Assembly (NCBI RefSeq): GCF_006345805.1
Contig: NC_043010.1
Coordinates: 28,706,001-28,770,000, forward strand
DNA: 64,000 bases
Direction: 5' to 3'
From: Octopus sinensis
Taxonomy: Eukaryota
Below are positions 15,667-41,912 of the stretch, piece after piece. The position numbers and the translations under genes were made by a program. Under the pieces are notes generated by a model. The model was not told the DNA's origin and did not search any database. It was given only the letters and a program-made list of their open reading frames with translations. Position 1 is the stretch's first letter. Every line of letters begins with the position of its first letter.

Positions 15667-15732
<66 letters not shown>

Positions 15733-15895: not shown

Positions 15896-16177
15896 GGGTT
15901 ATATATATATTTATTTATTTGTTCTAAATTTGAAGCTGGATTTAATGCTCAGTTTGATGACTAAAAAAAATTGAAATTCTGGGTCACAGTAGTGAGAAAC
16001 TTCTGTTTGGATGAATATATAAATTTATGTATGGAGTACTTTTGCCTCATGTTTGTTAATTCATATATCTGTACATACACAGACATTATTTTTATTTCCT
16101 TCATTTCTTCTATACATTAGTAGTAGTACAAACGCCATAACACTACATCAACATGGTTACTCTTCTTTTAACTTCTT

Positions 16178-17084: not shown

Positions 17085-17320
17085 TTCTTATTTCTTTATT
17101 GCCCACAAGGGGCTAAACATAAAGGGGACAAACAAGGACATACAAAGGGATTAAGTCAATTACATCGACCCCAGTGCGCAACTGGTGCTTAATTTATCAA
17201 CCCTGAAAGGATGAAAGGCAAAGTCGACCTCAGCAGAATTTGAACTCAGAACGTGATGGCAGATGAAATACCACTAAGCATTTCGCCTGGTGTGTTAACG
17301 TTTCTGCCAGCTTGCCACCT
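17085..17320 (-). mobile_element. SINE family A variant with a different 3' tail
   Basis: Minus-strand head ggtggcaagctggcagaaacgttaac..., and tail ...agccccttgtgggcaataaagaaataag instead of ggccttgtgcc...(att)n. Confidence 0.75.
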
Positions 17321-18184: not shown

Positions 18185-18576
18185 TCTCTATATATATAAA
18201 GCTGAAGTAATCTGTGTATGGCAGGTTTGGTAGCCTTCAACTAACACTATCTCCTCCGAGACCCTGCGGCGCAAGTTGACCAAAATTGAGAGTATGATAG
18301 AAGAAGGCTTGCTCTTCCTTCCGTAAAAGAAAAAATTCAAATCGGACCATGTTAACACCAAAAATTATTTACATCAAAAAGCTGCTTTTTTTCTATGAAA
18401 ATCCCTATTTTTTATGATTTTTTGACTGCTGTGTTGCCATTTTTCGGTGTATTTCAACCAGAAAAATGTTCACTTAAAGAGAATAACAGGCTACATAATG
18501 CAAAATTTTTACTTTTCAAAAATTCCAATTCTAAAGGGTCAAAACAAACCCGAGCAATGCCAGTCAATACTGCTAG
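18185..18576 (+). mobile_element. Non-autonomous Helitron
   Basis: 5' TC start, 3' CTAG end, inserted between A and T with no TSD, and a decayed subterminal GC hairpin. A second copy lies at 61879-62268. Confidence 0.8.
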
Positions 18577-21500: not shown

Positions 21501-22778
21501 AATTGACTGATTTTTCCTGGTGATATTAATATCTTTGATTGTTTTCAGAATATCTGATGGCCAAGTCTTTTTCTTTTTCCATTGTTGTGATTTTTATCTT
21601 CTAAATTTTAGAGGGAGGCTGGGATCATTTGGTCCAAAAGAAGATTCCATCTTTAGATTATTCATGTATTCAAAATAAAATAACTAGCTTTAGATCTTCT
21701 TTTTAGATCTCTTCCATATTCTTCTGTTCCTGTTTTTGTGTCTGTGTGTATTGGCCTTTGTTTAGTCAATATTCTTAAAGTATGTTACTGTTTTTTTGTT
21801 TTTTTTTACTTCTTTTGTTTAAACTTTCAATACTTCTCTTCTAATCCTTTACATTCTCACTATTTATCTTCTGTCTGTCTTTTTATATTTTATTTTTATT
21901 GTTTGTAATTTTGATGTCTGTTTTTGTTCATTGTTTGAGGTTTTATTGCTTATAGTCTTTCTTTCTGTTTTTTGTAAGTGTTCAGTTTTCTATGCTTGAT
22001 AGCTTTTTGATTTTTAAGTATGCATTTGTTTAAATTAGCTCATCTGTTGAGATCCAGAGTTACTTCTAGGTCAAGGTTATTTTCTCTTCAGATATTAAAC
22101 ATGTACAGTATGTGTCATTTTCTGTGCTGGTATACAGCTGTAAAATATGCATGTTGGAATGTATTTGCCTTGGTACTGTTCATGATTTATTGTTTTATTT
22201 CCAAGGTTTAGTCAGATTTTAGTCAGATTTTAGTCAGATTTGCATCATTTTTATTGAATATTCCTGTATCCATTACTGTTGAAGCAACATTTTCCATAAT
22301 TAGGCTATAAGATGATGTATTAAATGCTGTGTGCAAAAAATTCCTAATTAATGTAAATTTCCCTCTTAGTTGAAGAAAGAAAACAGAATCTAGTAGTGAT
22401 TGTTAGTGACTGTCAAGGGAGACTCACATCCATATAAATATAGAACTTGTAAACTTGGAAACAAACAGACTTGGAGTGGGGAGGGCATGTCATTGATCCA
22501 GTCAATAACAGCAAATAAAGGACTTTGACAAACCTGGCTAACTGTTTGAATGACTGAGTGATTAACAAGCAGGGAAGTTAAATGGTTAATCATAGTGAAA
22601 TATAACTAGTGCATGTGTTTATTACTAGCAGAATGACCTTCCTGAGATACAACAAAATATGTTTCAACACACAATTTCACATCTTGCAATCCAAATGCAG
22701 AAACAAAGAATTAATTTCTCAGATTTAACTTTCATACTCAGAGGAAGGAAAATCTGATGTTTGAGGGCAAGGGAGATG

Positions 22779-22820
22779 ACTATGGACATGTTTCAATCTG
22801 TTAGACCTCATCAGTACAGC
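22779..22820 (-). ncRNA. Type-I hammerhead ribozyme motif (partly decayed)
   Basis: Minus strand: gctgta CTGATGA ggtc-taaca-gatt GAAA catgT C catagt. Helix III is palindromic (acatgt); the first pair of helix I is mismatched. Confidence 0.55.
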
Positions 22821-23314
22821 CTACTGAAGCCTGCTAATCAGTTGACATATTTTTATATATAAAAGATAAAAACAAAAGTTACGAACATTTTTGGGACAGT
22901 AAAGATAATTAGATTAAGAAATAATCTATTGAATCCACTATACATTGTTTTTGTTTTGTTAATTGAAATTTAGCATATTCTGTCATTCTTGTTATCAAAT
23001 TTAAAGCACACATTCTCCTTTTAAACTGAGGTTGAATATGATTATAGTTTTTTTTGTTTGCATTTGACATGCTTTGTATTCAGTTAGCTTTTTTTTGTCT
23101 GGTATTGGGATAAGTTGTTCTGTTAATGTTTTTTATAAATGGCATCCTGTTGACAGTGCAAATTCTCAGAATACGTAGTTTATGTGAGGCACACCAAAAT
23201 ACCTTATTATTTTACATAGCTCTCCTTAAACCTGTAAGTCAGTTGTTTGTGGGGTTGTTTTTGCTGTTAATTCATTGATGCTTAAAGATAACTTTTTCAA
23301 ACTTACTGCTGCTG

Positions 23315-23540
23315 CTGTGAGCTGGTAAAATCATTAGCACACTGGACAAATTGTTTAGTGGCATTTTGTCTCTGTCGTTACATTCTGAGTTCAAATGCTG
23401 CCAAGGTTAACTTTACTTCTCATCCTTCCATGATTGATAAAATAAAGTACTAGTTGAGCACTGAGCTTGATGTAACCAACTAGCCCTCTCTGCCAAAGAT
23501 TTTCTGGCTTTGTGACCAGAGTAGAAAGGATTATTATTAT
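23315..23540 (+). mobile_element. SINE family A copy with (ATT)n tail
   Basis: Full motif series ending gtagaaaggattattattatt. Confidence 0.8.
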
Positions 23541-24200
23541 TAAGGTGATGAGCTGGCAAAATCATGAGGACACCAGGCGAAATGCTTAGTGGTATTTCGC
23601 CTGAATTCAAATTCTGCTGAAGTTGACTTAGCCTTTCGTCCTTTCAGGGTCGATAAATTCAGAGTGACTCTGGGGTAAAATATACAAAGCCCAGTATACC
23701 CATCATGACTACCCATTTGATAGGGTATACCAGGCACATGCATCACAACCATATGTGCGAGACATAGTGATCTCATATTAAGATAAACAGCGCATGACTT
23801 TGCAGGTGGGGCCCAGTTAGGATTTTTTTCAGGTTGAGTAGCCCATCCTGCTCAAAAAGTCCCTGAATAAGAGTTGTTTAAAGAATGTTGAACAAAACAG
23901 CCATGTTTCGAGAGGTGAATTATCCAAATCCCAAAGAATTCCTCACAACACATGGCTATGATGCTGCCCCACTACTTCTGCTCGTGATCAGAGATGCACA
24001 TATCATCAACCACTAAGGGACATGCTCAACCGGTTACGGTCGAACAACTGACAAGCAAATCTGTAGTATTGAGCAAAATATTTGCTGTAGCCCATCTTTT
24101 ATACCAAGACAAAACAATGTACATGATAACACTTGCAACCAGTTAAGATCAAAGGCCATGAGAGCCACTGTCTGCTACTGCATCAGGGCTTTTATTATTA
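23541..24200 (+). mobile_element. Family A head fused to a ~540-bp unrelated body (long or composite non-autonomous retroposon)
   Basis: Head aaggtgatgagctggcaaaatc...cctttcagggtcgataaatt, then non-A sequence ending gcatcagggcttttattatt. Confidence 0.55.
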
Positions 24201-24760
24201 CCGCCTTTAACTGGGAGGGCAAGGCAGTTTTCTTTTGCCTAGTGGCTGTAGCGAAAGAGGTTGTATGGTGGACCCGTTTGAAAGGGCTAAGGTCAGACAC
24301 TTTCCTCTTTGGCCCAGGCCTCATCAACTTTTTCAAGTTCCACTTGAAAAGGAAGGTGAGAGTAGAGAGGGAAGTGCTGTCCAATAGCAAGTTTGCTGAA
24401 AGGTGGATAAATGTTGCAAGAATGGCTAGTATGAAAGGAGCCATTCTGAGGTTACAATTGTGATTTAAAAAGGTAATATAAAAGGAGAAAGGGGCTCTCT
24501 ACCCACCTTTTGACCAGTCTCCCGTTGGCTTTTATGGATTTTTTCCACCAGGAACCTTTCGTAACGCCTCCACCTATTGGGAGTTTTTCGTTGTTATAAT
24601 TTTGATTGTTACACTGTTTTTACATGGTTTTTTTAGAAATAGACAAAACCCTTTGTAACCTTTCGTCCTGTTTTGTCCCTTTTGTGTTATAATTAATTTT
24701 TGTCAGCCCTTGTAGCCAATAAAAGAATTAATTATTATTATTAATTATTATTATTATTAG
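24201..24760 (+). mobile_element. 5'-truncated L1/Tx1-like LINE 3' end
   Basis: Peptide ...LVAVAKEVVWWTRLK...FFKFHLKRKVRVEREVL...FAERW resembles the ORF2 C-terminus of Tx1/L1-group elements (from recall). It is followed by a T-rich UTR, AATAAA and an (ATT)n tail. Confidence 0.55.
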
Positions 24761-27700
24761 TAGTAGTAGTAGTAGTGGATTTGGTAGATAGATACTGAAA
24801 GACGCCTGGTGTGTGTGTGTTTGGTGAGACATGTTTTTCATAGAAGACTGGAAATGAACAACACCACTTGTAGGATAATGATTCCTATTTACAACCATCA
24901 CATAGTCTAGACATGGGTACACACACACACACACAAATGATAATGATATTCATTCCATAGTATATTATGGTATAGTCAAAAGAAAGCACTGTTTGGTTAA
25001 CTGTTGTTAAGTCTACTTAAAGCTGAAGCTTTGAGGGACTCTGCCAAACACAATACATTAGAAATCACCCAGATTTTGTTCACTTGTATCTTATCAACAA
25101 TATAAAGAATAAGAACAAATACTGTCAGCTTTACCATGATTTGAACCCTTCCAATTCTGAACTGCTTGAGACCGCCCTTGGTCCTATGATAAAAAAAATC
25201 TGTATTAAAGTGATTTCAATTTTACCCCTTCCATAAAAATGTTCTGGTAATTTATGTTCTAAACACCAGCGGAATAATGACAAAATTATTTTACTAAATT
25301 TTTCATTATTTTCAAAATTAATTGAAACAAAGTCAGCATATTTCAACAGAAATAGGGTAACAAAAAGGTTAACCCATACATAACAAATTTATAATAAATC
25401 ATAGATGTTGGTTAGATGATTGCTCTAACAAATATGCCTGCTGCACTTTGATATCAAATATTCATCAAACAGTTGCCTACAAATGAATTATTTAATATAA
25501 AGTGTGTGAAAAAATTATTAACCAATGATAGTATTCATTGCACCAGTAGTAATAGTGTGTGTTGAGCAGTAAATACAAAAGTAATTTTGGAAGACAAGCC
25601 AAAAGGCAAAAACAGAAAACAATGCTACAATGGACTTTGTGTAAATCATCACTTTAAGATGTGGGCCTATAGTTGGCCACTTCAGCACCAAAATTGCTTG
25701 TGGGTATCTTTGGAATGAGAAACTGCATGTACTACAAGACAAGACAAATGATACCAGAGGGAGAGAAAGCTGTGCTGAGCCCCAATTGACTGGAGTAGGG
25801 AGGTTCCCCACATGTGTGTGGGTGGGTTACCTTGTCTGTTTAACATTTCCAGAACATATCTTGTTTTAATTGCTTTATATAATTTTGTGTTTTTAAATCA
25901 TCATCAGCACCATTCACTTTTCCATGCTTGTATGTATCAGTCAAAATTCATTGAGGCAAATTTCCTCTAGCCAGATGCCCTTCTGGTTGCCAACATCCAG
26001 CAATTTCCAAATTAGTTAATATTTCCTCTTGTCCTTTAAACACAGACATCTATGTATGTAGATGTTTATATCCATGCTTATAGGGGTGAGAAGGTTTTTG
26101 TTGGAGCAGTAGTTTTCAAAATTGGATGCTCCTCTTCTTAGTGCCAACCAATGAACCATGAAAGCAACTGTTTAATCAGCTAAACTGAATGGAGCAGATA
26201 AAATATGGTATTGGTTGCAAGATTTGAACCAATTAACCTGTGGTCATTAATTCAGTAACCTCACAATCATGAGCTATACACACACTAAAACCTTCAGACT
26301 CATCACAAGCTTTAAATTTCCACAATCCCTGATGATCTGTCATAGTGATAATTAATATTTCTAAAGTTGTGCATTACATTACACTGCTAAAGCTGTGTTT
26401 TCTAAAAGACTAATTACTTTTTCATGTACAGCTCTGATTATTTCAGTGATGTGCTACAAAAATTTCAAAAGCTTGAAACTACACCTTGCATATCAGTATT
26501 GTAACTTCACAGGCATGTACACTCACAGACACAAACAGTACACACACATACACACACACTGCAGTCATTAAAAGTGAAGTAAAATGGATTATCTCTATTG
26601 GTTTCAAAGATGAATGTGTTACTTTGATCAGTTGAATTACCATTTAAGTAGCTGAGTTTTCCACAGACAAGTGTTCCCTGAACATAATCTGAGCAAAATC
26701 AACATGGCACAGTATATGTCGAAAAAGCTGAGCCCTTGGTTACAGCTACAGTCCACCCAGAAAGCTTCCCCACAGTTTCTGTGTACTTAGTCATAATGCT
26801 AAGACTTGGGTTAACCTAACAAAAGATACTTGCTCAAATGCTATGTAATGGGATTAACCAAAGACCTTGTGATTCTAATTAAATCCACAGATGTGTTCTC
26901 CCCATTTCTCTGTTCCTTCTATCAGAACTACTATAATGACTCTCTTCATTTGAACTTCCAAGCTATGTGCCCTTCCATCTTCACCTCTGCTGAATTTCCC
27001 CTCATACACCCACATCTCTTCTCATCCTGAAGCGTCGTACCCAATCCTTTTTACCCTGGACTACAAACCTCTGCAACTCCCCCACTGAGCTGTGTGTTTC
27101 CTTACAGCCATTACAGTAGTTCACCAAGTTTGACAAAAAACAAAAAAAGAATCTTTAAAAACACAATTTTGCCTCCACTTACAACAAGTAACACCATGTT
27201 TACAGCAGTCATTTACAGTTAAGTGGACTGGACAATGCTCTAGAGTTAAGTGCCTGTGGCTGTGGTTACATCATTACAACATTGGTGACAGGATACTTAC
27301 TGTTGAGCTTCCTGTCACTTTAGTGACAGGGACAGAAAAAGGGATGAATGGGCAATTGGCTGGCTAGCTGGTTGTCTGTCACTCCTGATTTAATGACCAT
27401 CTACAACTCTCACCTTCATTCCCACTTCAACATTTCTCAGAGTAAAATAAGCAGACAATATTTACAATACATTCCTCGACCCTTCTAACTACGGCACTAT
27501 TTACTCAGCTGCTGTAATTATATGAGAGCAGAATTACCCATATTCCTCTCCTTTCTTGTGCTACTAGTTATCCCTCTCCTTGAAACCACTTCCCTTACCA
27601 CCCATCTTGCTCCCCTATCATCATCATCTTTTTTTCCCATTGAATGCCCTTTTCCCCTGAACACTCTCTTATATCTGTCCAACACAGCCCTCTGTGGATC

Positions 27701-28635
27701 CTGTCAAAACTGTCCCATTCATGATAGTATGGAATATGAGTATTAAATGAAAATGATGGTGATTATTACATGTTTGTACAAGGGTTCAGCAAGGTACAGG
27801 CATGACTGATTAAGAAGTTTGCTTTGCAAACAAGTGGCTTCAGGATCAGTTCTACTGCATGGTGGTTTGGGTGGTGCACGGATGTTGATATTCTATGTTG
27901 TTACCATTTGGACAAACTGGTGGTGGTATTGACATTTTTCCTTGACAGACATTATAACCAGTAGCTCTGTGTTTTCAAAGACCTGGAATGAAAAAAAAAA
28001 TTCCTTAACTTTAAAATTAGGGTTGATGACAGAAAGTGCATCTTACCATAAAATCCTGCCTCAAAATAGCTTTCATCGAACCCATTCTTGAATGGAAAAA
28101 TAGATTTGAAATTAACAAACGTGTAATAGTATTACATGAATAATAGTTTCTGATTTGGACACAAGGGTAGCAGTTTTGAAGGAAGTGGGTTAGTTCATTC
28201 CGTTGACCCTATAGTATCAATTATTGTTTGGTGACTGAAAGATGTTATTGTATTATTTGCTCATATTAGTTCAAACTAAGTGAAAGACTTTAATCAACAT
28301 TTCTGGGCTGAACACTTTATTACACATTCTCTCAGTTTATTCAGTTGTGTACAATACAGACCAGATCATTAGAGAAATGTTACTAGTCGACTATTCTGGA
28401 GAAGTTTCATGAAACTAGAGCAGTAATACTTCACTTACATCCTCACGAAGGACAAAACTTACACCTATTTTCTCACAACAAATAAACTTTAACCAGGTAC
28501 TTGTGAGCTCACAGGGAACATTGAGTGTTTTGAGGGGTTGTGATTTTTCTAAGAAATAAAATATTTAAACAATCTTCAGTATTTAATTTTAAACCTTTTG
28601 TTACCATATTTCTGTTGAGATACATTTTGTATGTT

Positions 28636-29018
28636 TCTTTTACTTGTTTCAGTCATTTCACTGTGACCATGCTGGGGCACCACCTTGAAGGGTTTTCTTA
28701 GTCAAACAAATCAACCACAGGACTTATATTTTTAAGCCTGACACTTATTGTATCAGTCTCTTTTACCCAACTGCTAAGTTCGTGGACATAACATGCCAAC
28801 ACTGGTTATCAAGCAGTGATGGTGGGGGACAAACACAAAGGCACACACACATAGATACGTGTGTGTGTATTTATTTATTTATACGCACACTTATATATCG
28901 GGCGTCTTTCAGTTTCCATTTACCACATCCATCCACAAGGCTTTGGTTGAACCAAGGTTATAGTGGGTGACACTTGCCCATGGTTCCATGCAGTGGAACC
29001 ATGTGGTTGGGAAGCAAA
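28636..29018 (-). mobile_element. SINE family B copy nested in a piggyBac-like MITE remnant
   Basis: Family B motifs. The flanks (28589-28630, 29020-29130) are the reverse complement of parts of the 25140-25373 element that ends ...aaaaggttaa. Confidence 0.65.
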
Positions 29019-31067
29019 ATAACTGTCATTATTAAAATGGTGTTTGGTACATAAATTTGCATGAAATTTTGATGGAAGGTTTTAATGTAGATTTCTTTAA
29101 AACAAAAAGTTTGCATTACAGAAACAAGTTCAAAACATTTTTGCTAGGATTAAGATAAACATAGGACAATGTGTTATCAGTGATCAGAAACATGACATGT
29201 TGTGCCAAGGACCAGTATATAATTTCATTGATAAGTTCTTACCTTCTTTAATAATTTCTACATAAATTTAAAACAGAAAGCACCAGTCCATGTTATAAGG
29301 AGTATGGATAACAAACCACTGCACAAAATTAGCTTCTGTTTCATTACATTTTATTTGCTTTTTTTTTTTTGTTTTCTTTTTACAAGGTAAAGGACTGGGG
29401 GGTATATGTAAATCATTAATTTGTGGAAGGAGGTACTAAGGAACCAAAAAGTTGAGAGCACTGGACTGGAATTTCATTGTGATTCTTAGCAAGATATTTA
29501 ATTCTTCATTACCTCTGTTCAGCTGTGAAGAAATAGACACAAGGTTTGTGTAGAAAAGTTATCTGAAATAGGACCATGCACCTATCTGAAGTGGGTGTGG
29601 GTTATTGAACTGAGGACTAAATTTTTAGGTTCATCTATTATGTAAAAGGTTAACTTCACTATGTTAGCTGTGTAGGTGGAAATGGTCATGGGAATGTGGA
29701 TCTAACTTTCTCTGTCTTCAACATTATTAATGTTAGTAAGGTCCTGGGAAACTAGTTCTGGGCTTCGTGTTTCATTCTCTATCATTGTTATTATTGTCCT
29801 AACTTCACCCAGTAGTGGGGCCCTGACTTGGTAGTTCCAGGTTTTTGAGGAGTGTGGAACCACCTATTAGTCATTAGTGTTTCTGGGCCTTCTCTGACTT
29901 GGAGTAGTAGCACTTGTCAGGGTCCTGGTTACGGAAAAATTCCAAGCACAACCCTCACTGCCTTGTGAGTGCCTCAGGAAAGGAGGTTAGGGAAGTCAAA
30001 GTTGACAGCAAATCTAGGAGTGGAGTACCTCAGGTAGTCCAGTGTTCTCTTTGATACCCTTCTGGCAACTCCAGAGTAGGTGGGGGCTCTCCAGCCCTGT
30101 AGGGCAATTCATCTGGAAGGCCACTCCAATGTAAAAGCTAACAGCTTGCTGCTCACAGCAGCCATCTTAGCCTGTTGAGTCATTATGATGAGATCTCTAA
30201 GATTAAAGAGAGATCAGATTGTGTGGACTGAGTTTTTGCTTTAAACTACTAAGCACAAGCAGGAAGAAGAGCTCTGCAGTGATGGAGATGAAAATGACAG
30301 GTGCTAGATGATCTTGGCAGTCATTGCCTCATCTTTGCATATGAGCAGCTTCTCTTCCACTAGCCTTTGTTTAATTAAGATGGTATGGTGTGATTTGGTT
30401 GATATTTCTAGTAAATTAAAGAACTGTATCAAAGCTCTATCATTGTAAGTGCCATTGGTTGCATAATTCACTAGTGTACATGATATCACTGCAAAAATGA
30501 TGAATGTTTGGGTAGCTTGGAGACCAAACACATCTTTTGACAGGCAAAGTTACCCTCTAGTAGCCAGCATGTTATCTCTGGGGAACTTATCTTTCATCTA
30601 CTAGGAAAACCAGAAATAAGGAACAAAGGATCTCATTATTTCGAAAATATGATTTTAAAATTTGAAATCTGTGAAACCAAAATTATTTTCACTAACTTAG
30701 AGTGTGTATAGGTGGGTTGGTATTCAAATTTTAAATAACAAATTAAAAAACGAAACAGAAATCTAACTCAAATTAGGAATAAGTAAACTAGTTTACAATT
30801 TGTCTTTGAATTTTGGTTCAAATTTCTATTTTGGATTCTGTTGATTTTTACTTGAGATTATCATCATCATTATTGAATGTCCACTCTTTCATGCTTGCAT
30901 AGGTCACATGAAATTTGTTGAGGCAGACTTTCTATGGTTTGATGCCCTTCCTATCACTAACCCTCACCTGTTTCCAAGCAAGGTAATACTTCCCCATGGC
31001 CAGACATGTTTTCCATAGAAGACTGTAAATGAGCAGCATCACTTTTATGACAATGATGATCATTTAT

Positions 31068-31339
31068 AGTTCTATATTTAACAGATGAGGAATTATCTAC
31101 ATTATTTACATTCGACAGATATTTGTCCTCATCTTGTTTGTTGTTAACACGTTTCAGCTGATACACCCTCTAGCCTTCTTCAGGTGTCTTGGGGAAATTT
31201 CGAACCTGAAATTCCTGAGGTATTCTTCGATGTTATTATTATTATTATTATTATTGTTGTTGTTGTTCAGGTCACTGCTTGGAATTGAACTTGGAATCTT
31301 GGGATTAGTAGCCCGCGCTCTTAACCACTACGCCATATG
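31068..31339 (-). mobile_element. tRNA-headed short element carrying a defective hammerhead motif
   Basis: Minus strand: tggcgtagtggttaagagcgc (A box) ... aagttcaattcc (B box-like), then (AAC/AAT)n, then gacac CTGAAGA aggct...agct GAAAC gtgtt. Confidence 0.6.
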
Positions 31340-32614
31340 TTGAAACATAAATTTTTTTTTTTTTTGCCTTTTGGTGCAAAATGCATTCTTTATATCACTA
31401 GCTGGGAGATAAATCCCTGTCACCTCCAGTGCCAAGACCATCAGATCATGTGATTTTGACCTTCCTTGGCCTTGTCAATGATGGACACTTAACCACTAGA
31501 AATAGCAGTGATTTATCTCCCTGCCAGGGAGGGATAAGTAAAGGCACCTTGCTGTAAGAGATAAAAGGAAGGTTGTGCCACCAGTATGAAAAATGCACCC
31601 AGCAACTCACAAAACTATGAAGCATGGGGTAAGGTGGGGTAAAATTCAGTTTTATTCTAGGTAATGAAGTATTAGAGTATGAGCAAGGTGGGGATGGAGC
31701 AATGCAGGTTGTTGTAGAGGATTTGGCTACTCATATATCTGCTGACTAATTAAAAAAAAGAAATTTAATTGAAATTTATTTCAGTTTAAGTAATTTATAA
31801 CTGTTTACTTATAAGATTTTGAGACTAAAGTGTGATTTACATTTTATTGGGTTCCTCCACCACCCATCTTAAATGTTTTTGCTAAAGTATATTGAAGCAT
31901 AGGAAAGTTTTTTATTCTGAATATAGCAATTAAATATAACAGAAATAAGTGATGTAAAGTGGATGGTCTATTGTAAATAAATGGTTTAAATTGGTCCACT
32001 TGAGAATTATGTGATCCAGTAAGATGATAAAATTATAGGAATAAGTAATAACGACAATGATAGTGACCTATTGTGAATGAAAGTCTTTAATTGGTCCACT
32101 TATGAAATACTTGTGAAATACTTAAAGAGAATTAAGGAAGTTTCACACACATGTACACACATACATGCCGATACATGTACATGCACACACACACACATAT
32201 ATTTATATATATATAAATATGCATGCACATGCATATATGTATTATATTAATAAGAATGAATGAACATTATATTTAACTTTGAACATATACTATCAAATTT
32301 GGTAAGTTGTATGTTTATATTGGTAATGCTATAACTCTGTAATTTCTACATGCTCTAGACTTTTGTTTGCTTCAGAAAGGCTTTAGTTGTGGTAACTAAA
32401 GACAAAGTTAAGAACCAGATTTCATCTAAATAGTAAAGTATATCTCCTGTAATATTGTAGGTAGACACAGGGAGGTGTTCCACATGGTTACTTGGTATGT
32501 GAGAAATAGTAGTTAAGTCTACCTCATCACACACAAAGATAGACGGATACATTGGGTATTGTAGTCCCTTGATACACCAAAAGGTAGGATAGTTACTAGA
32601 TGAACACTTAATAA

Positions 32615-33190
32615 GATAGTGAACTAGCAGAACCATTAGCACATTGGACAAAATGCTTAGCAACATTTCTTCTGGTTTTACATTCTGAGTTCAAAATCTG
32701 CCAGGGTCGGCTTTGCCTTTCATCCATTTAGGGTTGATGAAATAAATACCAGTTGAGAGCTGGGGTTGATGTGATTGACTATTTCCCCACCCCCAAAATT
32801 TCAGGCCTCGTGTCTATAGTAGAAAATATTCTTATTATTATTTAAAGCAGTGAGCTGGTAGAATTGATAGCACACCAGGCGAAAAATGCTTAGCGGTATT
32901 TCATCATCTCCATGTTCTGAGTTCAAATTCTGCTGAGGTCAACTTTGCCTTTCATGCTTTCAGGGTCGATAGAATAAGTACCAGTTGAGGGGGGGGTCAA
33001 TGTAATTGACTATCTCCCTCCCCAAAATTTCAGGCCTTGTGCCTGTAGTAGAAAATATTGTTATCATCATTATTATTATTATTCGGATGGCAAACTGGCA
33101 GAATCAATAGCATACAGGGCAAAATGCTTTGTAGCATTTCATCCGTCTTCACATTCTGAGTTCAAATACCACCAATAGTAGAAAGTATTA
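32615..33190 (+). mobile_element. Three head-to-tail SINE family A copies
   Basis: Units start at about 32615, 32845 and 33085, separated by (ATT)-rich tails. Confidence 0.85.
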
Positions 33191-33259
33191 TTGTTTGATT
33201 TGACTCAAATTTGTTCTTATTCTTGGTAGAATTTATGTGGATAGTGGATTACTGCTTGT

Positions 33260-34400
33260 GGCCTCAAGCTCTCAATAACTTTTAAGTGCTCAAAATTTTT
33301 CTGATAATCTTCCCCATTTCTGAGAAGCAGACTTTCTATAAAAGCTCTACGGGACATTCTATTCCAATCTCCTTCAACCATTTCTCTATATCTTTACTCA
33401 CAATTTCTGATGTACCAATTATTACAGGCACAATCTTACAGTTTTCATATTCCAAATTCTCGCAATTTCAAATTTTAAAGGATTGTATTTTTTAAAATTT
33501 TTTCATCATCTTTCTTTACAATCCAGGAATCAAATGGATATGATTGATTAATTAGTGAGCAACTTTGCTTCTCCTGGTCTATTATTGTTATGTCTGGTTT
33601 ATTATTTTCTGGCTTATCCATTTGAATAGGAAAATCCCATAAAAATCTTGCATTTCTTCAACTTAAACAGTCTTTCAGGTTGATTATCATACAAGTACTT
33701 CCAGTGGAAAACTTATGCCTCCATTTCTTATATTCACCCTGAACCAATTTGGAACATTCTGAAACAATGTGTGCCATTATTTCATCTCAAATTCCACACA
33801 CCCTACATTTTGCTGAAGCCTCCCCATACACTTATTTTCTCAAGTTTGTTTTTAATACTTGATCTTGAGCTGCTCTGTTTCTTTATTCCAATGCTCTTTT
33901 TTCAACCAAGCCCTGGTTTTTGTTTCACATTCATCTGTGGTTTTCCAAAACTGACCATGCAAAGGTTTCTCTACAATCTCTTTAACATGCTCTTTTCGAA
34001 TTTCATTTTTGCCCTTTTCTTTTATTCCACACTCGATCTGTTCTTTATTCGTTGTCTTCAGTAATTTTTCTGTGCTGTTCTGTAAATATTCTACTAGGTT
34101 TTTTTTTTTCTTTCCATCTATGCACACTCTTTCACAGCAATTAAGCTCCTTCCACTCTGGTCAAGTATAACTAGTTATCAGCTTTGGGGCAATGGGCTCT
34201 ATACAATACCAATAGCTTTCTAGTTTTTCTGTCAAGTTTCTGTAATTAGCTGTTTGTCCATTCTACAATTCCAACTCCTTATCTGATTACCAATACTGCT
34301 CTTGAATTTATTGTTTCAATAGCATTTTTTAAAATTCAGCTTTGTAATATTTTTCTCACATTTCCTACTTGTAATTTACTCCATCTCTTCATGTTTTATT
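33260..34400 (-). mobile_element. Decayed Dong/R4-clade non-LTR retrotransposon, 3' part
   Basis: Minus-strand remnants KPLHGQFW...WLKK...KETE and WDFPIQMDK...NKPDITID match motifs of R4/Dong elements with a restriction-like endonuclease (from recall). Many frameshifts. Confidence 0.7.
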
Positions 34401-34406
34401 TTGAAC

Positions 34407-34891
34407 TACATGGTTCTGGGTTCAGTCCCACTCCATGGCACCTTGGGCAAGTGTCTTCTACTATAGCCTCAGGTCAACCAAAGCCTTGTGTGTAGATTTG
34501 GTAGACGGAAACTGAAAGAAGCCCATCATATGTATATATATATGTGTGTATATATATATAAAGGGTAAAGACCCCTTTCGGTCATGAATGACCATGGGAT
34601 TGCACCTAGAAAGTTACCCTCCTAGACACAAGTCCGGGCAAGGTTGTTTATGGAAGACCAGCAACCGCCCATGCATACTGGCCTCCCCTCTCCACGCCAC
34701 CAGTGTTATCCAAGGGAAAGACAAAGGTCAATACAGCTTGGCACCAGTGACGTCGCAACTCATTTCTACAGCTGAGTGAACTGGAGCAGCGTGAAATAAA
34801 GTGCCTTGCTCAAGAACACAACACACAGCCCAGTCCAGGATTCGAGCTCACAACCTCACGATCGTAAGCTCGACACTCTAACCACTGAGCC

Positions 34892-34923
<32 letters not shown>

Positions 34924-35140
34924 GTATGTTTGTGTGTCTGTTTGTCCTCCCCAACATTGCTTGACAACTGATGCTGGTATGTTTACGTCCCCATAACTTA
35001 GCGGTTCAGCATAAGAGACCGGTAGAATAAGTACTAGGCTTACAAAGTATAAGTCCTGAGGTTGATGTGCTCAACTAAAGCCGGTGCTCCAGCATGGCCA
35101 CAGTCAAATGACTGAAACAAGTAAAGGAGTAAAAGAGAGA
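34407..35140 (+). mobile_element. SINE family B, sense copy interrupted by a family D element
   Basis: catggttctgggttcagtcccact...ccttgggcaagtgtcttctactatag and, after the insert, ...actgaaacaagtaaaggagtaaaagag. Confidence 0.85.
34561..34891 (-). mobile_element. SINE family D, near full-length, nested in the (TA)n tract of a family B copy
   Basis: Minus-strand head ggctcagtggttagagtgtcgagct...gagctcgaatcc and gtgttgtgttcttgagcaaggcacttt. Flanked by (TA)n on both sides. Confidence 0.85.
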
Positions 35141-35659
35141 GTATCATTGTCACTATCATTATTGTTTTAAATGTTAACATTTGTTTTACTGTGTTTGCAT
35201 GCAGCAAATGAAATTTGTTGAAGCTGATTGTCCATACTGGATGCTCTTCCTCTCCCCAACCTTACTTGTTTCCAAACAAATATTTTCCCATAACCAGGCA
35301 TGTGTCATGGACTGTTAAAAAGAAAGTGACACCACCTATATGGTGACACTTGTTTACTACTATAGCTTGTCAAGAAAAGAATACACAAGTGCACATAGAC
35401 ACACATGCACACACACACACACATGTATGTGTTGTGTATATGTATACAATAGACTTCTTTCAGTTTCCATCTACCACATCTATTCATAAGGTTCCGGCCA
35501 GCTGGGTCTATAGTAGAAGACTCTTACCCAAGATGCCATACAACAGGACTGAACTTGAAGCCACAAAGTTGGGAAACAAACTTCTTAACCACATGGCTGT
35601 GTGTGTGTGTGTGTGTATGTAGGTATGCGTGTGTATTTGTGTGTAAATGTGAATATATA

Positions 35660-35705
<46 letters not shown>

Positions 35706-35810
35706 ATATACCGGAGTAAACACATAAATGTGAAACAAGGTGGAAAAAAGAGTACTCAAATACCAGTGGTAGAGTTATATGCTTTATTTTAAGCAGCAGA
35801 AAATTCAACA

Positions 35811-35857
35811 AAATCTGTTACTCCGAGTTTCTCGTTGCCATTCATCAGACAGTTTTT
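35811..35857 (-). ncRNA. Type-I minimal hammerhead ribozyme motif
   Basis: Minus strand: aaaactgt CTGATGA a-tg-gcaa-cg-a GAAA ctcggagT A acagattt. Confidence 0.65.
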
Positions 35858-36463
35858 GCTAGAATGGAACCGATATATCAATTCAATCTAGACTCTTACA
35901 AACGCTACACCTTTAAAAAAAAAATGGACTTGTTTGATTGGCCCTTTAGAAAAAACGGTCAATCTTCGAGCGATAAACAAAAAGGTCAAAAATATATGTA
36001 TATATATATAAAAACTTATAAAAATTATAAAATTCGAGGAAAAAACCTTACATTGAATAAAATACATATTGACGTTAATGAAGAAAGTATAATTAAAGCA
36101 TAGAAATTAAAACCTATTATAAATATTACACTGCAATACATATTTATATTAAAGTGTACATATGTATATCAACATACACAGAAGGATGCGTGCAAACGCC
36201 ATACATGTACAGATGTATACATATAAATCTAAAATATACACATAAATGCATGCGTACATATATGCACGCAATCCATCTCGCACGCAAGTTAAAATCATCT
36301 ATGTAGCGATTCTCATATACTGAGTAAGGGGGATGTAGAGTTGCATTAGTATCAGTTAGAGAAAAAAACGACAGAAAGGAAGAGAGAGAAAAAGGAACGA
36401 AGAAGGGGGAAGGAAAAAAAGAAAAGGGAGGGGTGGGGGAAAAAACGAAATAAGAAAAAAGAA

Positions 36464-36510
36464 AAAACTGTCTGATGAACGGCAACGAGAAACTCAGAGT
36501 AACAGATTTT
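36464..36510 (+). ncRNA. Type-I minimal hammerhead ribozyme motif on the sense strand of the intron
   Basis: aaaactgt CTGATGA(36472-78) a-cg-gcaa-cg-a GAAA(36489-92) ctcagagT A(36501) acagatttt. Helix I is ctgt/acag and helix III is actc/gagt. Confidence 0.7.
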
Positions 36511-36656
36511 GTTGAATTTTCTGCTGCTTAAAATAAAGTATATATATATATATATAAGAGTTGTAGTCTGTTAGGAATGTGGTAGAGTACAGTCTAAAGC
36601 TCATCCATATTCAAATACATACATGTATATCCATACCTATATTTAGGCAACTATGT

Positions 36657-37295
36657 ATCATCATCATCATCATCATCATTTAACGTCCGCTTCCATGCTA
36701 GCATGGGTTGGACGGTTCAACTGGGGTCTGGGGAGCCCGAAAGCTGCACCAGTCCAGTCAGATCTGGCAGTGTTTCTACAGCTGGATGCCCTTCCTAACG
36801 CCAACCACTCCGAGAGTGTAGTGGGTGATTTTATGTGCCACCGACACAGGTGCCAGACGAGGCTGGCAAACGGCCACGCTCGGATGGTGTTTTTATGTGC
36901 CACCGACACAGGTGCCAGACGAGGCTGGCAGACGGCCACGCTCGGATGGTGGTTTTTTATGTGCCACCGACACAGGTGCCAGACGAGGCTGGCAGACGGC
37001 CACGCTCGGATGGTGTTTTTATGTGCCACCGACACAGGTGCCAGACGAGGCTGGCAGACGGCCACGCTCGGATGGTGTTTTTATGTGCCACCAACACAGG
37101 TGCCAGATGAGGCTGGCAAACGGCCACGATCGGATGGTGCTTGTTACGTGCCCACAGCACGGAGGCCAGTCGATGCGGTACTGGCTACGGCCACGTTCGG
37201 ATGGTTTTCTTATGTGCCACGTGCCACCGGCACTGGTACCACAAAGATACAAATTCCATTGATGTTCATCTATTTTGATTTGTTTTGATTTGATT
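36657..37295 (-). mobile_element. Retroposon family C, full-length young copy with an expanded internal tandem repeat
   Basis: Both ends match the reverse complement of 4562-4932, and the interior holds five 62-64-bp units plus a diverged one. Confidence 0.88.
36829..37210. repeat. 62-bp GC-rich minisatellite (5 near-identical units plus 1 diverged)
   Basis: atgtgccacc anchors at 36833, 36895, 36959, 37021 and 37083; a diverged unit starts at 37146. Confidence 0.95.
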
Positions 37296-37311
37296 TTTTT
37301 TTTTTTTTTTT

Positions 37312-37342
<31 letters not shown>

Positions 37343-37443
37343 CCCTCTCGGATTTGTGGGTATATATACATACCCACATAGATAAGTAAGTAAACCTACC
37401 ACTTTGACTTGCGCATACATATAGCAAATCACATGTGTATACA

Positions 37444-37502
<59 letters not shown>

Positions 37503-37503
<1 letters not shown>

Positions 37504-37739
37504 TTATAAAATTTATGAATAAATGAAAGAATGGAGTTGAACGACAAATTAACAAATTTCCTTTATTTTCGACATGTTTCGAAGGCTGCATATTCCTAAT
37601 TGTGAAGGAATAAGGAGTACATTATGCCGCTTTCTCATCAGGAAAAACAAGGAATTTATGTCAACATCAAGATTCACAAAAACTTTTGTTGATTTGTCGT
37701 TCAACTCCATTCTTTCATTTATTCATAAATTTTATGAAA
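37503..37739. repeat. ~54-bp inverted repeat enclosing a hammerhead motif (Penelope-like terminus)
   Basis: 37503-37556 is the reverse complement of 37685-37739 with about 2 differences. Confidence 0.85.
37555..37657 (-). ncRNA. Type-I hammerhead ribozyme motif with extended helix II
   Basis: Minus strand: ttccttgtttttc CTGATGA gaaagcggcata...tatgcagccttc GAAA catgT C gaaaataaaggaa, with a GUC cleavage triplet. Confidence 0.75.
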
Positions 37740-38075
37740 ATACACACAAATTTCCACACGAAAACACGTAGTCTCTGCCCATGGCACATAACTTCAACCG
37801 TGTTATTTCTGATGTGAATTTGCTACCCAGGTATCGGTTAAACGAATTATCCATAAAAAGATATTTCATTTTTCTACTCGTATATATATATATATATACA
37901 TATCCATATCTCTCTTCTTATCTCCAACTTTGCATGCTGACTCTCATACAATCACTCCCATAGATGTAAGTGTGTGTGTATGTATATATATATACCTACA
38001 CATCTACACATTCGTACATAAATACACATATTTTTAATAATAAATTCATACAAATATACACAGACCTGGACTTAT

Positions 38076-38146
<71 letters not shown>

Positions 38147-39129
38147 AATGAGTAGATACTTTCATGGTCTATAGAGATGTAGGTGGGCACCCGTACATAT
38201 AAATAGCACAATCCAACTAGAAGTTTACTGAATTATTATTAATTATTCACAATACTATTATTTGATAGTGCTGGGTCTAGAGATTATGTATATACATATA
38301 TAGAGAAAGAGAGATAAAGAGAGGTACAACCAGAGACTCATACTTATATATATAGAGAGTAAAGGGAAAAATATATATACACAGGATACTTAGGTAGGGT
38401 GTGTATATGTGAGTATGTATCCAACCACTTAATACTAAAGGTCAGCTTAAGAAGTTCACATGTGTAGCCAACCATGAAGAACAGATCAGAGATACAATCA
38501 AATAGCAGACCAATCCCATTTGAATGCCAGCCAGTACCATCTTCTACCATTCATAGCAGTCCAACAAACACTATCTGTGGCTTCTGAAGTCATTTGACTT
38601 CTATCTCTACCAAAGCTGATATTCTCCCAGTACCACCATATCATTTTAACTTGGCAGCACTGTTCACTCTTTAGTTAACCACTAGTATTATTAATTTTAT
38701 TATTAATAATATACTTATATATTTATTTGTAAATTATTCACTTAGTTTGTCTATGTATGTGCCTTGGGCCATCAAACGAACAAGCAAGCATGGTGAGGAG
38801 AATACGTTTAAATTTCACTTCTCTTACGTAAGTTTAACTGAAGATGGGATAAGAATATTTAATTCAGAGCCCAAAATTGGTATTAAGCTATCTGCTATTT
38901 CCTCTACAACCTCTGCAAAGGTAGGAGCCTAATTTTTATTCCTTGCCCGATTTTCACCATGCTTGTTCATAAAGTGAGCTATCTGTGTATTCCGAAGTCA
39001 TTTGACTTCTATTTCTATCAAATGCTGGAGCACCATTGTATTTTTACACTTTTACATATGATTCTTTATTGACTGATTTCTTCAGGGTGGTGGGATTTCA
39101 TATTACCACCCCTGTATGTGCCTTTACTT

Positions 39130-39790
39130 TGGTCATTAGCACCTTTAGTATATGAGGGAGTTTGATTCTGCTGCCTTCATCTGTACCTCTTGCTGGGCTG
39201 TTAATTCATCCAGTATTGTTGAAAGGAGAATGTCCAGTTCCTTTTTGAAGACATCCACATCTACATTGTGTAGGTTTCTTAGGACATTGAAGAGCTGTTG
39301 CAGTATCCCATCCTCACTTTTGGACAGTATCCTTGGTACAATACAATGGCACCCAGTTCAGGCTCAATGCTGAAATTAGGTACTAACCCTTCTAGAATTT
39401 TCCATATGTAATTATTACATATCTATCATGTCTTCACTCTAGGGAATAAGGTCATAGTTTTTCAGCCTTTCCCTGTAACCCATCTGCTGCACTGTTCCAA
39501 TATTTTAGTGTAGTGACACTGAACCACATCAAGCTCCATTGTTAGTTGGGTGTGCTGTGTTGACCACAGCTGAGAGCAGTAGTCCAGGCAACTGAGAACA
39601 AAGGTCCTCCACAGGGCTAGGACGACTTCTTGATTTCTTATCTTGAAGGACCGTATTATCCATCCTGCCTGTTGTTTGTATTTTGGTGCCATCTTGGTAA
39701 TATGCATATGAAATGATGCATCATTACACATACTGATCCCCAAGTATCTCACTGCTTGTGACTCTGGGATTGCTGTGCCTTTGAGTCCTC
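39130..39790 (-). mobile_element. CR1/L2-group LINE remnant (end of the RT domain and C-terminus)
   Basis: RYLGI...GWIIRSF...LWRTFVLSCLDYCSQLWS...LDVVQCHYTKI and a downstream VFKKELDILL. Confidence 0.8.
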
Positions 39791-41912
39791 TCTGTGTGTG
39801 TGTGTGTGTAGATTAAAGCACAAATGAAAAGGCAAATGGTTTGGCAAAACTTAACAAGGGCATTTAATTTAGCTATATAATAAAACGGTTTGCATAGAAA
39901 CACAGCTGTTTCTAGAATATCCCAGCTATTGGATCATCGTGTCAAGCAAGGATTCTATCGGCCAGAGTATTCCATCATCAGAGAGAAATAGGTTAAATGT
40001 GTAACAGTGGAAGAATATTCCTCATCAATGATATTATTGTGGCTCGTTTTGTCTAGAAAGGGAGGAAAAATTTAACTAAACGTTCAATTAAGATAGGTAT
40101 TCGTTAGGTAAATCCATGAACAATTGAAGAAAATTGATGATGTCTATTTACAGAACTAAAACAGAGAGAATGGTTTGATTGAATTCCATGGTGAGGGAAA
40201 ATGGATGTTAGCAATTCCAATGTTGGATAGATACTCGTATATGTGTGTGTGTGTGTGTATACACATACACACATATATATGTATATATATATACATACTA
40301 CATACATATATATTGCTTGTGATATAAAAAAAGTTATTTTTATGCCTGGATGCACATTCTATAACTAACCACTCGACTGTGAAATTGGTAGTGGAGCTTG
40401 TATTTTTTTCTTTATTTTTTCAATCAAAGTTGAATTACAGTTACAGCAGTGAAATTTAGTAATTATTCCTTTATATGTTTCCCTCTCTCTACTGAGTAGA
40501 GGTTTATGTCTTTTGCCCCTGTTGGGTTTATAAAAATATTACAAATGTAAAACTCACTTGCTATGATTCAAAGCCAACCTTGAAAACAAGCATGAAGGAA
40601 AGAAACCAGCAAATTGTCTACATGAGTCAAATTTCCCTCAAATCATACCCTGTTGTTTGGGGGGAAAGAAACAAATACATTAGCTAATGTAATCCTAGAT
40701 GTACATCCAAATAGTGGACTTAGTGAGGATCATGGCTTGACTATCTTTGGTCATGGGGGTCAGGGATAAACTAGGAATACAATATTAACTACAGTATGGA
40801 AAATAAAGCTTCTTCTTGGTTGCTCAACTTGCTAGAAACAGCAGTCAACTCTCCCTCATATCCTGTCTTGTCATCATCACCATTGTTTTAATATCTAACT
40901 TTCTATGCTTGTATGGGTCATTTGAGAATATGTTAGGGCAGAGTTTTTTACAACTGGACGCCCTTCCTAATGCTCACCCTCCACCTGTTTCCAAGAGAGA
41001 AAAATCTCCCTGTCTATTGCACAACAAACAGCTCAGGTTTGTTAACACATAGAGCTGGAAACAAAAGGGCACCATATGAATGATCTATTTGTTTACAGAG
41101 ATTGCACAACATTCCAAGTCATGTCAAGAGGCTTGGATATTCTTTCACAGTGGACTGTAAAGAAATGACAGTCTGACACCATCAGCATGGTCAAAGCGGA
41201 TACATGTGAAGATGAAGGAAACAAAAAACTTCCTCTCCTCCCCCACACATAATAATGAGGGGCTACCGAATCTACTTGCCAAGCTTTGATTGACCTGGGC
41301 TATAGTAGAAGATCATTGCCCAAGTTGCCATGCAGTGGAACTGAACCTGAAACCATGATTGAGAAGTAAACTTCTTGACCACATAGCCATGCTTGTGCTT
41401 CAGAAAAATTGACCATGTCATAACTGAGATATTTTTTGATTTTTATGTTTTAATTAGGAGGGGATATAGTTCCCATAAGCCTCTACAGGGTCTCCTAGAC
41501 TGATAGGAGGTGTTGGGGGCCAAAGAAAGGGAAAGTATCTTCAAATTGAATACCTGGCCCTAATGTTTGCTAAGGAGTGGACTGTAAAATTTACCCTAGT
41601 AGCCAGATAATAATGTTTAACCAGGTGACCATAACTCTGCTAGAGCTAACTTGGAGGCTTGGATAACAGCAGCAATATGGAAAATGTATGTAAAATAGTA
41701 TTTTCTCTCATTTGTTTTTATAGCTGGATAACTTCCTCTCACTTGACCACTCACTAGTGAAATTGGAGTGGTACCTGTTTGTTAATCAAGTAAACCTGAG
41801 ACAAGAAGTATCCTGTGTTTGGAGTATTATATATATATATGTAATTATAAATGTTTTATTATGTATCATATAATATTTTAGTTGCTATTTATTTATTTAT
41901 TTATCTTTTCAG

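What the first reader, a model, noticed from the sequence alone, without database searches (positions are those of the whole stretch)
37503..37739. Large hammerhead with branched, extended helix II locked inside a 54-bp inverted repeat
Seen: intact CUGAUGA/GAAA core, GUC triplet, and helix I extendable to about 13 bp with a mismatch or bulge. The insert in helix II is about 54 nt (gaaagcggcata/tatgcagccttc, with an alternative tattcct/aggaata hairpin). The motif is enclosed by near-perfect inverted arms, so the ~235 nt fold into one rod-like RNA. It follows a (CA)n(TA)n tract. Inference: a second Penelope-like family terminus, and the best candidate in this window for an active ribozyme.
Basis: partly seen in the sequence, partly recalled or inferred. 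Interest (0 to 1): 0.7.

Follow-up and report, generated by a model that had tools for sequence, protein, structure and literature searches.

The report
Hydra retrotransposon hammerhead, back-to-back insertion
This is a slightly worn copy of a predicted self-cutting hammerhead RNA that sits at the end of a Penelope-like jumping gene with hundreds of near-identical copies in this genome; the flanking inverted arms are a second scrap of the same element lying backwards, this copy likely cuts poorly, and the family likely keeps its ribozyme folded shut until something opens it.

Summary
The motif is real: a type I hammerhead on the minus strand (core 37641-37635, cut 37571/37570) with a 54-nt helix II domain and 52/54 inverted arms. 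It lies in the pseudo-LTR of a Hydra-clade Penelope-like retrotransposon (RW, DKT, YRDD, C-terminal GIY-YIG, (TA)n flanks); 602 exact family copies exist. The arms are not part of the ribozyme. They are the element's own 3' segment present twice in a 377-bp back-to-back insertion, and they do not change the fold. This copy lacks 2 nt of the palindromic helix III (15 such copies vs 602), has no partner hammerhead and lies antisense in an intron, so it is a poor candidate for activity. The family motif is strongly conserved, but the catalytic fold shows no covariation within the family; an alternative core-trapping hairpin does. Other leads: the family lacks the linker zinc finger (14/14 copies vs present in 91/93 homologues) yet still abuts (TA)n; insertions pair one short with one ~140-nt-longer end (19/20); 5' ends show no peak at the cut site. 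The scan noted long-helix-II Hydra hammerheads before on other DNA. Cleavage is untested.

The parts
37486..37502 (.). (TA)n tract at the left end of the insertion, preceded by (CA)n; likely the target site
   Evidence: 96 of 100 family ends meet a TA run at one of two fixed positions
37503..37687 (-). 5'-truncated pseudo-LTR copy 1: from 117 nt upstream of the cut site, through the hammerhead, to the short 3' end (T1, about +67)
   Evidence: 188 of 191 columns identical to family copy L013, with a 2-nt gap
37503..37556 (-). Left arm of the inverted repeat = element segment +15..+68 in copy 1
   Evidence: 52 of 54 identical to the right arm
37551..37570 (-). 3' strand of helix I (5 bp, 2x2 loop, extension)
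37571..37580 (-). GAA core strand, helix III palindrome ACAUGU (family: ACAUAUGU) and C17; predicted cut between 37571 and 37570
37581..37634 (-). 54-nt helix II domain: 12-position stem with two mismatches, 12-nt bulge, 5-bp hairpin with 8-nt loop
37635..37641 (-). CUGAUGA catalytic core strand
37629..37648 (-). Predicted alternative hairpin (5' strand of helix I paired with the start of helix II) that would trap the core in its loop
37642..37662 (-). 5' strand of helix I and its extension
37685..37687 (.). Inversion junction with 3-nt microhomology shared by both copies
37685..37879 (+). 5'-truncated pseudo-LTR copy 2: starts 14 nt past the cut site (no hammerhead); 37685-37738 is the right arm, 37739-37879 the ~140-nt tail ending at the long 3' end (T2, about +209)
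   Evidence: 186 of 192 identical to L013
37880..37898 (.). (TA)n tract at the right end of the insertion
4463..41912 (+). Inferred 37-kb intron of a C2H2 zinc-finger host gene that contains the insertion; the hammerhead is antisense to it
   Evidence: GT at 4463 and AG at about 41912 join in phase to complete a C2H2 finger; no RNA evidence

Best explanation
The stretch is part of a 377-bp back-to-back pair of 5'-truncated ends of a Hydra-clade Penelope-like retrotransposon lying in a (TA)n tract; one end carries the family's predicted type I hammerhead, and the 54-bp arms are the element's own 3' segment present in both ends, likely produced when both nicked target strands primed reverse transcription and the two cDNAs were joined at a 3-nt microhomology. 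Shown: family membership, anatomy, copy numbers, two fixed 3' ends, variable junctions. Inferred: the element's endonuclease nicks (TA)n; one strand primes at an inner RNA site (T1) and the other at an outer site about 140 nt further on (T2). In the intact element the hammerhead would work as a dimer through its palindromic helix III and likely needs help from the element's protein; it likely rests in an off fold in which a local hairpin traps the core. The templates used for insertion appear to be uncut. This particular copy has lost 2 nt of helix III, has no partner and no upstream promoter region, and is likely silent or nearly so.
For: Family: 1909 first-look candidates, 40 scored, the best at 97-99%; 602 exact long and 15 exact short helix III matches. 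Upstream of the hammerhead lie a ~600-nt 3' UTR, a GIY-YIG domain and an RT with RW, DKT, FDISxFYPS, YRDD; 521 homologues at E<=1e-10, best 43% identical. Most scored copies lack the left-hand context of the window and run straight on into the tail. In the first 100 anchor matches on contig C1, 58 have inverted element sequence at their 5' end by an automatic flag that also counts some alignment artefacts. Ends: 60 of 100 meet TA at +47..+75 and 36 at +177..+212. 19 of 20 independent back-to-back pairs have one short and one long end (P about 1e-5), as does the window. Constraint: core+II+III are 92-97% identical between subfamilies, the 3' UTR 50-87%, and synonymous divergence between subfamilies B and D is 0.40-0.45. 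Helix II is kept with changed letters in sister families that share the flanks. No 5' ends pile up at the cut site: 2 of 100 vs 2.2 expected, in line with PMC11167929. The short helix III is scattered over four subfamilies and matches the weak, dimer-dependent amphibian form (PMC7229834 passages). Off hairpin: 97.9% paired, 14 cells changed on both sides, 0 of 500 shuffles as high; 53 of 60 pairs across 10 lineages, swap p=0.002.
Against: No cleavage data. The catalytic fold shows no covariation among 39 family sequences (score 0.032 vs 0.030; 37 of 500 shuffles), and RNAalifold does not recover helix I or the base of helix II. Folding models give the hammerhead fold low probability in B, some D and all G copies. 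The off-hairpin signal rests on about 2-3 independent events among related sequences; helix I 3' and helix II 5' both begin with GAAA-like purines, so the pairing may be a by-product; subfamily C prefers the on fold (P 0.99). The short helix III still dimerises in the model (-4.6 vs -7.0 kcal/mol), and a 6-nt palindrome is listed as canonical for Chlamys-2, so this copy may not be dead. It could also be an assembly indel; contigs did not settle this. No empty target site was examined and no background control for TA adjacency was run. No intact full-length ORF was seen in the 15 stretches fetched. Clade placement is by motifs, not by a tree.
Confidence: 0.85

Rival explanations
1. The 237-nt arm-enclosed unit is a functional RNA or a MITE-like element in its own right, with the arms holding an active ribozyme in shape.
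For: Very stable fold (z -12.8). A few other loci have a similar arm upstream of the hammerhead (L002, L003). In this copy helices I and II are well populated (0.75, 0.67).
Against: L002's junction lies at a different position; junctions are spread over -200..+25; the right arm runs on into a 140-nt element tail; the arms do not change the hammerhead's pair probabilities; helix III cannot form as a monomer.
Confidence: 0.04
2. The motif is conserved as a protein-binding or promoter/5' UTR element and no longer cuts; the long helix II is the docking site and the core is a passenger.
For: No 5'-end peak at the cut site. No covariation for the catalytic fold within the family. In the Anolis element, ribozyme mutants did not affect insertion in vitro. 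The 3' strand of helix II is nearly invariant in sequence.
Against: Core letters, a palindromic helix III and an H17 residue are kept across unrelated families (315 pattern hits vs 1 control; 33 of 46 distinct motifs with helix I >=3 bp), which is hard to explain without catalysis.
Confidence: 0.12
3. The copies are a non-autonomous retrozyme-like element spread through circular RNAs, not ends of a protein-coding element.
For: Most copies are short and non-coding; some lie in short tandems (L017/L030, L133); retrozymes are reported to derive from Penelope-like elements (bioRxiv 10.64898/2026.07.22.740005).
Against: Copies have nested 5' truncations that run continuously into the endonuclease and RT; no fixed unit length from cut site to cut site; ORF under purifying selection between subfamilies (dN/dS 0.12-0.15).
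Confidence: 0.05
4. The (TA)n flanks are added during reverse transcription, or the family is mobilised by another Hydra protein that has an intact linker finger, so the missing linker says nothing about targeting.
For: The genome holds other Hydra-type frames, one with an intact CxCx5C linker (L204); the ends fall at AT-rich element positions; no empty site was checked.
Against: The family's own linker-plus-endonuclease region is under purifying selection and keeps the GIY-YIG residues; both ends of insertions meet TA.
Confidence: 0.2

Closest known systems
Hydra-clade Penelope-like elements and their hammerheads, including Hydra-1_Obim of Octopus bimaculoides (Craig et al. 2021, PMC8557442; seen: passages, section 11, supplement hits and part 2 with File S2)
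   Same: RW and DKT motifs, YRDD, C-terminal GIY-YIG without CCHH between GIY and YIG, CxxC and CxH around E and N, (TA)n flanks, type I hammerhead in the pLTR with a short palindromic helix III, inverted 5'-truncated copies, tail at one end.
   Different: Helix II domain 54 nt vs at most about 24 nt in the 26 Hydra rows of File S2; tail about 140 nt vs 30-40 bp; CxCx5C linker absent, with an Asn-rich stretch of about 120 aa; element about 3.5 kb vs under 3 kb. Hydra-1_Obim is a different family with a compact hammerhead (compared by eye).
Minimal and palindromic-helix-III hammerheads of metazoan PLEs (Cervera and de la Pena 2014, PMC4209133; seen: passages)
   Same: Type I topology in pLTRs, short palindromic helix III, G10.1-C11.1 pair, proposed dimeric action with low monomer activity.
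   Different: Their 'larger than usual' helix II is 7-8 bp; here a 12-position stem, bulge and hairpin.
PAc Poseidon element of Anolis (Frangieh et al. 2024, PMC11167929; seen: parts 1-2 of 4, not the supplements)
   Same: Two fixed internal ends that define a tail; hammerhead upstream of them in the 5' part of the next unit; no footprint of cleaved templates.
   Different: Different clade; the two ends are about 140 nt apart here; the ORF starts about 255 nt after the cut (one locus, L051) instead of inside the hammerhead.
Amphibian retrozyme hammerheads HHR_Amex1 and HHR_Amex2 (Cervera and de la Pena 2020, PMC7229834; seen: passages)
   Same: The window's helix III (1 pair + palindromic tetraloop) is the Amex1 form; the family's (2 pairs + tetraloop) is the Amex2 form.
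   Different: Those sit in head-to-tail tandem repeats that give circular RNAs; this copy is single and part of an inverted insertion.
PLE-X1 hammerheads of Selaginella (File S2 of PMC8557442)
   Same: About 50 nt between the core strands, flagged there as deviating from the canonical fold.
   Different: Endonuclease-less plant elements that target 28S rDNA; unrelated sequence.

Membership tests
Type I hammerhead ribozyme | Conserved core CUGANGA, GAAA, UH with helices I and II in type I order | tested here: met
Type I hammerhead ribozyme | Helix III able to form (as monomer or palindromic dimer) | tested here: inconclusive
   Monomer P=0 in the window copy and <=0.05 in family copies; palindrome duplex -4.6 (window) vs -7.0 kcal/mol (family)
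Type I hammerhead ribozyme | Covariation of the catalytic fold | tested here: inconclusive
   None within the family; changed pairs in helix II between homologous sister families, read without a formal statistic
Type I hammerhead ribozyme | Match to an Rfam hammerhead model | tested here: not met
   No hammerhead family among 46 matches at E<=1; the long insert may defeat the models
Type I hammerhead ribozyme | Site-specific self-cleavage | not testable with these tools
   No raw reads offered; indirect genomic footprint negative
EN+ Penelope-like element | [quoted passage not shown] | tested here: met
   L051 and L056; Pfam and PDB sequence searches gave no RT hit, so the call rests on motifs and homologues
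EN+ Penelope-like element | 5' truncation, inverted or tandem pLTRs, tail at one end | tested here: met
Hydra clade | RWK-type motif and DKT in place of DKG | tested here: met
   NRIRWL and SDKTRN in L051; third residue of RWK is L
Hydra clade | No CCHH finger; CxxC and CxH around conserved E and N | tested here: met
   C292, C295, E298, N311, C320 invariant in alignment A1; CxH in most copies
Hydra clade | CxCx5C linker upstream of the endonuclease | tested here: not met
   Absent in 14 of 14 distinct own linkers vs present in 91 of 93 homologues with an endonuclease; hence filed as a Hydra-derived variant
Hydra clade | Insertion at (TA)n | tested here: met
   96 of 100 ends meet TA at one of two fixed positions; empty sites not seen
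Hydra clade | Placement in the RT phylogeny with named Hydra families | not tested
   Named reference proteins were seen only as supplement text; compared by eye
Non-LTR retrozyme | Non-coding head-to-tail unit with a hammerhead in each repeat | tested here: not met
   Single hammerhead, inverted partner, continuity with a coding element
MITE / TIR element | Fixed terminal inverted repeats shared by all copies | tested here: not met
   Arms vary with the junction and one arm runs on into the tail

The most novel reading that the evidence does not exclude
This octopus-type Hydra lineage carries a two-state hammerhead. A local hairpin forms first and traps the catalytic core, and it has been kept by compensatory change even at the cost of pairs in the active fold; the element's protein or a second copy flips it on, with the 54-nt helix II as handle. 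The same lineage has shed the linker zinc finger thought to guide (TA)n targeting yet still hits (TA)n, and every insertion is made by one inner and one outer priming event 140 nt apart.
Probability: 0.3. Interest if true: 0.68.

Novelty: new variant of a known kind. Interest (0 to 1): 0.42.

Why it matters
The locus itself is a genomic scrap. The family is useful in three ways. (1) What hammerheads do in Penelope-like elements is open, and the one element tested with its protein needed that protein to cut (PMC11167929). A conserved core-trapping hairpin gives a concrete, cheaply testable structural reason. (2) The linker finger was proposed to drive (TA)n targeting (PMC8557442); a family under purifying selection that lacks it yet abuts (TA)n is a natural counter-example. 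(3) The near-strict pairing of one short and one long end constrains models of how inverted pLTRs arise. Long helix II hammerheads also escape Rfam here, so such motifs are likely undercounted in cephalopods; the scan had already noted this on other DNA.

Tried and rejected
Rfam at E<=1: only microsatellite-driven miRNA and snoRNA noise. Pfam on the RT and endonuclease frames and on two homologues, and the PDB sequence search: nothing useful. A footprint of cleavage in 5' ends: none. The -297..-300 values arose from a reference that itself holds an inverted arm, so for those five rows I used the values; the -178/-180 values partly reflect short references. Expression: no RNA holder listed and no raw reads. 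Contigs of four runs only guessed to be RNA cover family sequence but cannot show strand, ends or level. Contigs did not span the window's junction or settle the 2-nt difference. The relaxed hammerhead scan was faulty (it missed the known motif) and was redone, which gave the known motif and one weak chance-like hit at 28579. L203, with two hammerheads 3 kb apart, held no ORF between them. Hydra-type frames near the other long-helix families lay on the opposite strand or far off, so those families are not formally tied to ORFs here. A TATA-Inr promoter reading of the 5'-end cluster is weakened by a 13-nt deletion between the two motifs in subfamily D. A 53-codon frame over the motif was taken as chance. 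Paper searches for Hydra-clade elements in octopus, long helix II, twin priming and alternative conformations returned nothing beyond the papers cited. Repbase, Dfam and most subscription papers were not searchable, and the supplements of PMC11167929 (Fig. S2C on folding) and PMC4209133 were not read and may bear on the off-fold claim.

Full report
Observation. On the minus strand the window reads helix I 5' strand, CUGAUGA (37641-37635), a 54-nt insert, GAA, ACAUGU, C (37571) and the helix I 3' strand. The arms 37503-37556 and 37685-37738 match at 52 of 54, and the 237 nt fold far better than shuffles (z -12.8). The fold is a long stem ending in a multiloop. Helix II is a 12-position stem with two mismatches, a 12-nt bulge and a 5-bp hairpin, not a branch or an alternative. 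Pair probabilities are the same with and without the arms. Rfam does not recognise the motif. It is the only convincing hammerhead in the 64 kb.

Context. The genome has 2.72 Gb. That it is an octopus is my inference from its size and zinc-finger content (recalled) and from a cephalopod homologue. A GT at 4463 and an AG near 41912 join in phase to complete a C2H2 finger, so the site likely lies in a 37-kb intron with the hammerhead antisense to the host gene.

It is a repeat, and the arms are incidental. The genome search had 1909 candidates, 40 scored; most top copies match only from 37687 inward and then run on into the sequence found on the plus strand at 37739-37879. The window thus holds two truncated pieces of one element end, back to back: 37687-37503 on minus (188 of 191 columns identical to copy L013) and 37685-37879 on plus (186 of 192), overlapping by 3 nt. 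The segment they share forms the arms. I fetched all of the first 100 of 2144 exact matches to a 23-nt anchor, all on contig C1. Their 5' junctions are scattered, and 58 of 100 were flagged as abutting inverted element sequence; the flag includes some artefacts.

The element. Upstream of the hammerhead lie about 600 nt of 3' UTR, a GIY-YIG domain and an RT. L051 holds a near-complete copy in two frames; none of the 15 stretches fetched had one intact ORF. The motifs RW, DKT, YRDD, no CCHH, and CxxC/CxH around E and N are those given for the Hydra clade (PMC8557442 section 11). The published Hydra-1_Obim is a different family with a compact hammerhead (by eye). There are 521 homologues at E<=1e-10, best 43% identical. 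Between subfamilies B (3 copies) and D (1 copy), dN/dS over 140 codons of linker and endonuclease is 0.12-0.15. One defining feature fails. The CxCx5C linker is absent from 14 of 14 distinct own linkers but present in 91 of 93 homologues that have an endonuclease; in the alignment all four cysteines are replaced. Yet 96 of 100 ends meet a TA run at fixed positions (no background control, no empty site).

Insertion mechanism. The 3' ends are bimodal: 60 of 100 at +47..+75 and 36 at +177..+212 from the cut site. Of 21 back-to-back pairs, one is a tandem duplicate. Of the remaining 20, 19 have one short and one long end (one long end classed; L124 is the exception); P is about 1e-5 under independence. 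The window follows the rule. In L051 the element continues past the long end into the ORF start (one locus), so both ends are internal sites, as shown for the Anolis element (PMC11167929). A tail at one end is known, at 30-40 bp; here it is about 140 nt. I infer double-ended priming and joining at microhomology.

The ribozyme at family level. Four subfamilies share the 54-nt domain. Core plus helices II and III are 92-97% identical between them, against 50-87% in the 3' UTR and dS 0.40-0.45, so the domain is constrained. Formal covariation for the catalytic fold is absent in 39 sequences. These were 38 of 47 distinct full copies plus the window; nine were left out (four with a 5-nt duplication, two duplicates, three others). 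Sister families that share the flanks (69-78% identical downstream) keep helix II with changed letters, and one of them (G1) pairs only in a shifted register. A looser pattern finds 315 hammerheads with 40-70 nt inserts against 1 control, most from other families; 34 of 46 distinct ones pair at >=9 of the first 12 positions. The 26 Hydra rows of File S2 have at most about 24 nt there. Earlier notes of this scan report the same class; I had reached the Hydra reading before opening them.

An off fold. RNAalifold preferred a hairpin between the 5' strand of helix I and the start of helix II, with CUGAUGA in its loop. With a matching swap of the 3' strands, this fold is 97.9% paired and has 14 cells changed on both sides (0 of 500 shuffles as high). 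It is 6 of 6 in all four subfamilies, 4-5 of 6 in sister families and 1-3 of 6 in unrelated families; swapping strands among 10 lineages gives p=0.002. Two of the changes cost a pair in the active fold. Against it: only 2-3 independent events, related sequences, similar purine runs on both strands, and subfamily C favours the on fold. I give it about 0.3. It would fit the protein-assisted cleavage reported for the Anolis element.

This copy. Helix III is ACAUGU in 15 exact matches and ACAUAUGU in 602. The short form occurs in all four subfamilies (12 loci read), so it is sporadic loss or assembly error, not a lineage. It equals the weak, dimer-dependent amphibian form. Forcing the active fold costs 7.1 kcal/mol here and 2.2-13.1 in family copies, so the energy alone does not single it out. 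What counts against it is the missing partner and the missing upstream region. 5' ends show no peak at the cut (2 of 100 vs 2.2 expected) but do cluster at -155..-144 (19 of 100, one a duplicate, vs 3.8 expected), possibly the RNA's 5' end. The window copy starts at -117, downstream of that.

Verdict. A real but ordinary, slightly decayed copy of a known kind of motif. The family is a new variant: long helix II, no linker finger, long tail and a possible off switch. Papers seen: PMC8557442 (passages, section 11, supplement hits and part 2), PMC11167929 (parts 1-2 of 4), PMC4209133 and PMC7229834 (passages), bioRxiv 10.64898/2026.07.22.740005 (part 1 of 5).

Noticed in passing
family-wide; L013: 5' ends cluster at -155..-144 from the cut site, at a TCATT motif about 26-28 nt after TATAAA and near a TGACGTCA box; may mark the pLTR transcription start. 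Subfamily D shortens the spacing by 13 nt. The motif labels are recalled.
   Followed up: partly
window 37503-37879, plus strand: The inferred host intron RNA would fold the arms into a 54-bp duplex (-120 kcal/mol for 377 nt), a possible A-to-I editing substrate (cephalopod editing recalled). Untested.
   Followed up: no
run X20, record 26 (window 37523-37687): One low-depth contig (2.15) carries a cluster of A>G differences on the strand antisense to the hammerhead; could be hyper-editing, a diverged copy or error.
   Followed up: no
L157-L204: At least five further hammerhead families with 48-68 nt helix II domains and the palindrome ACAYRUGU; several have an A.C mismatch at helix II position 4, as do subfamilies A, B and D. 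L160/L161 and L182/L183 are short tandems (391 and 438 nt apart).
   Followed up: partly
L198 and L190: A sister family shares the pLTR tail (69-71% identical) and lies next to an inverted Hydra-type ORF 53-55% identical to homologue P0006, with a partly degenerate linker.
   Followed up: partly
L081, L085, L090, L153, L005 minus: A sub-lineage has a 5-nt duplication just after the cut site and a changed helix I 5' strand; left out of alignment A2.
   Followed up: no
window 36670-37260: Repeat with six to seven 62-64 nt tandem units after a (CAT)n run; related pieces at 4592-4894 and 7271-7642. Looks like an RTE-associated SINE (label recalled).
   Followed up: no
window 3833-4462 and 41913-42611: C2H2 zinc-finger gene whose 37-kb intron splits a finger between its two cysteines; the last exon has poly-Q tracts.
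   Followed up: partly
L005:200-420 (minus) and L064:5426-5959 (plus): Fragments of other Penelope-type reverse transcriptases near family copies.
   Followed up: no
L007, L009, L010, L011, L019, L020: The same back-to-back insertion with kilobases of near-identical flank occurs on C1 and four small contigs: segmental duplication or redundant assembly, which inflates copy counts.
   Followed up: no
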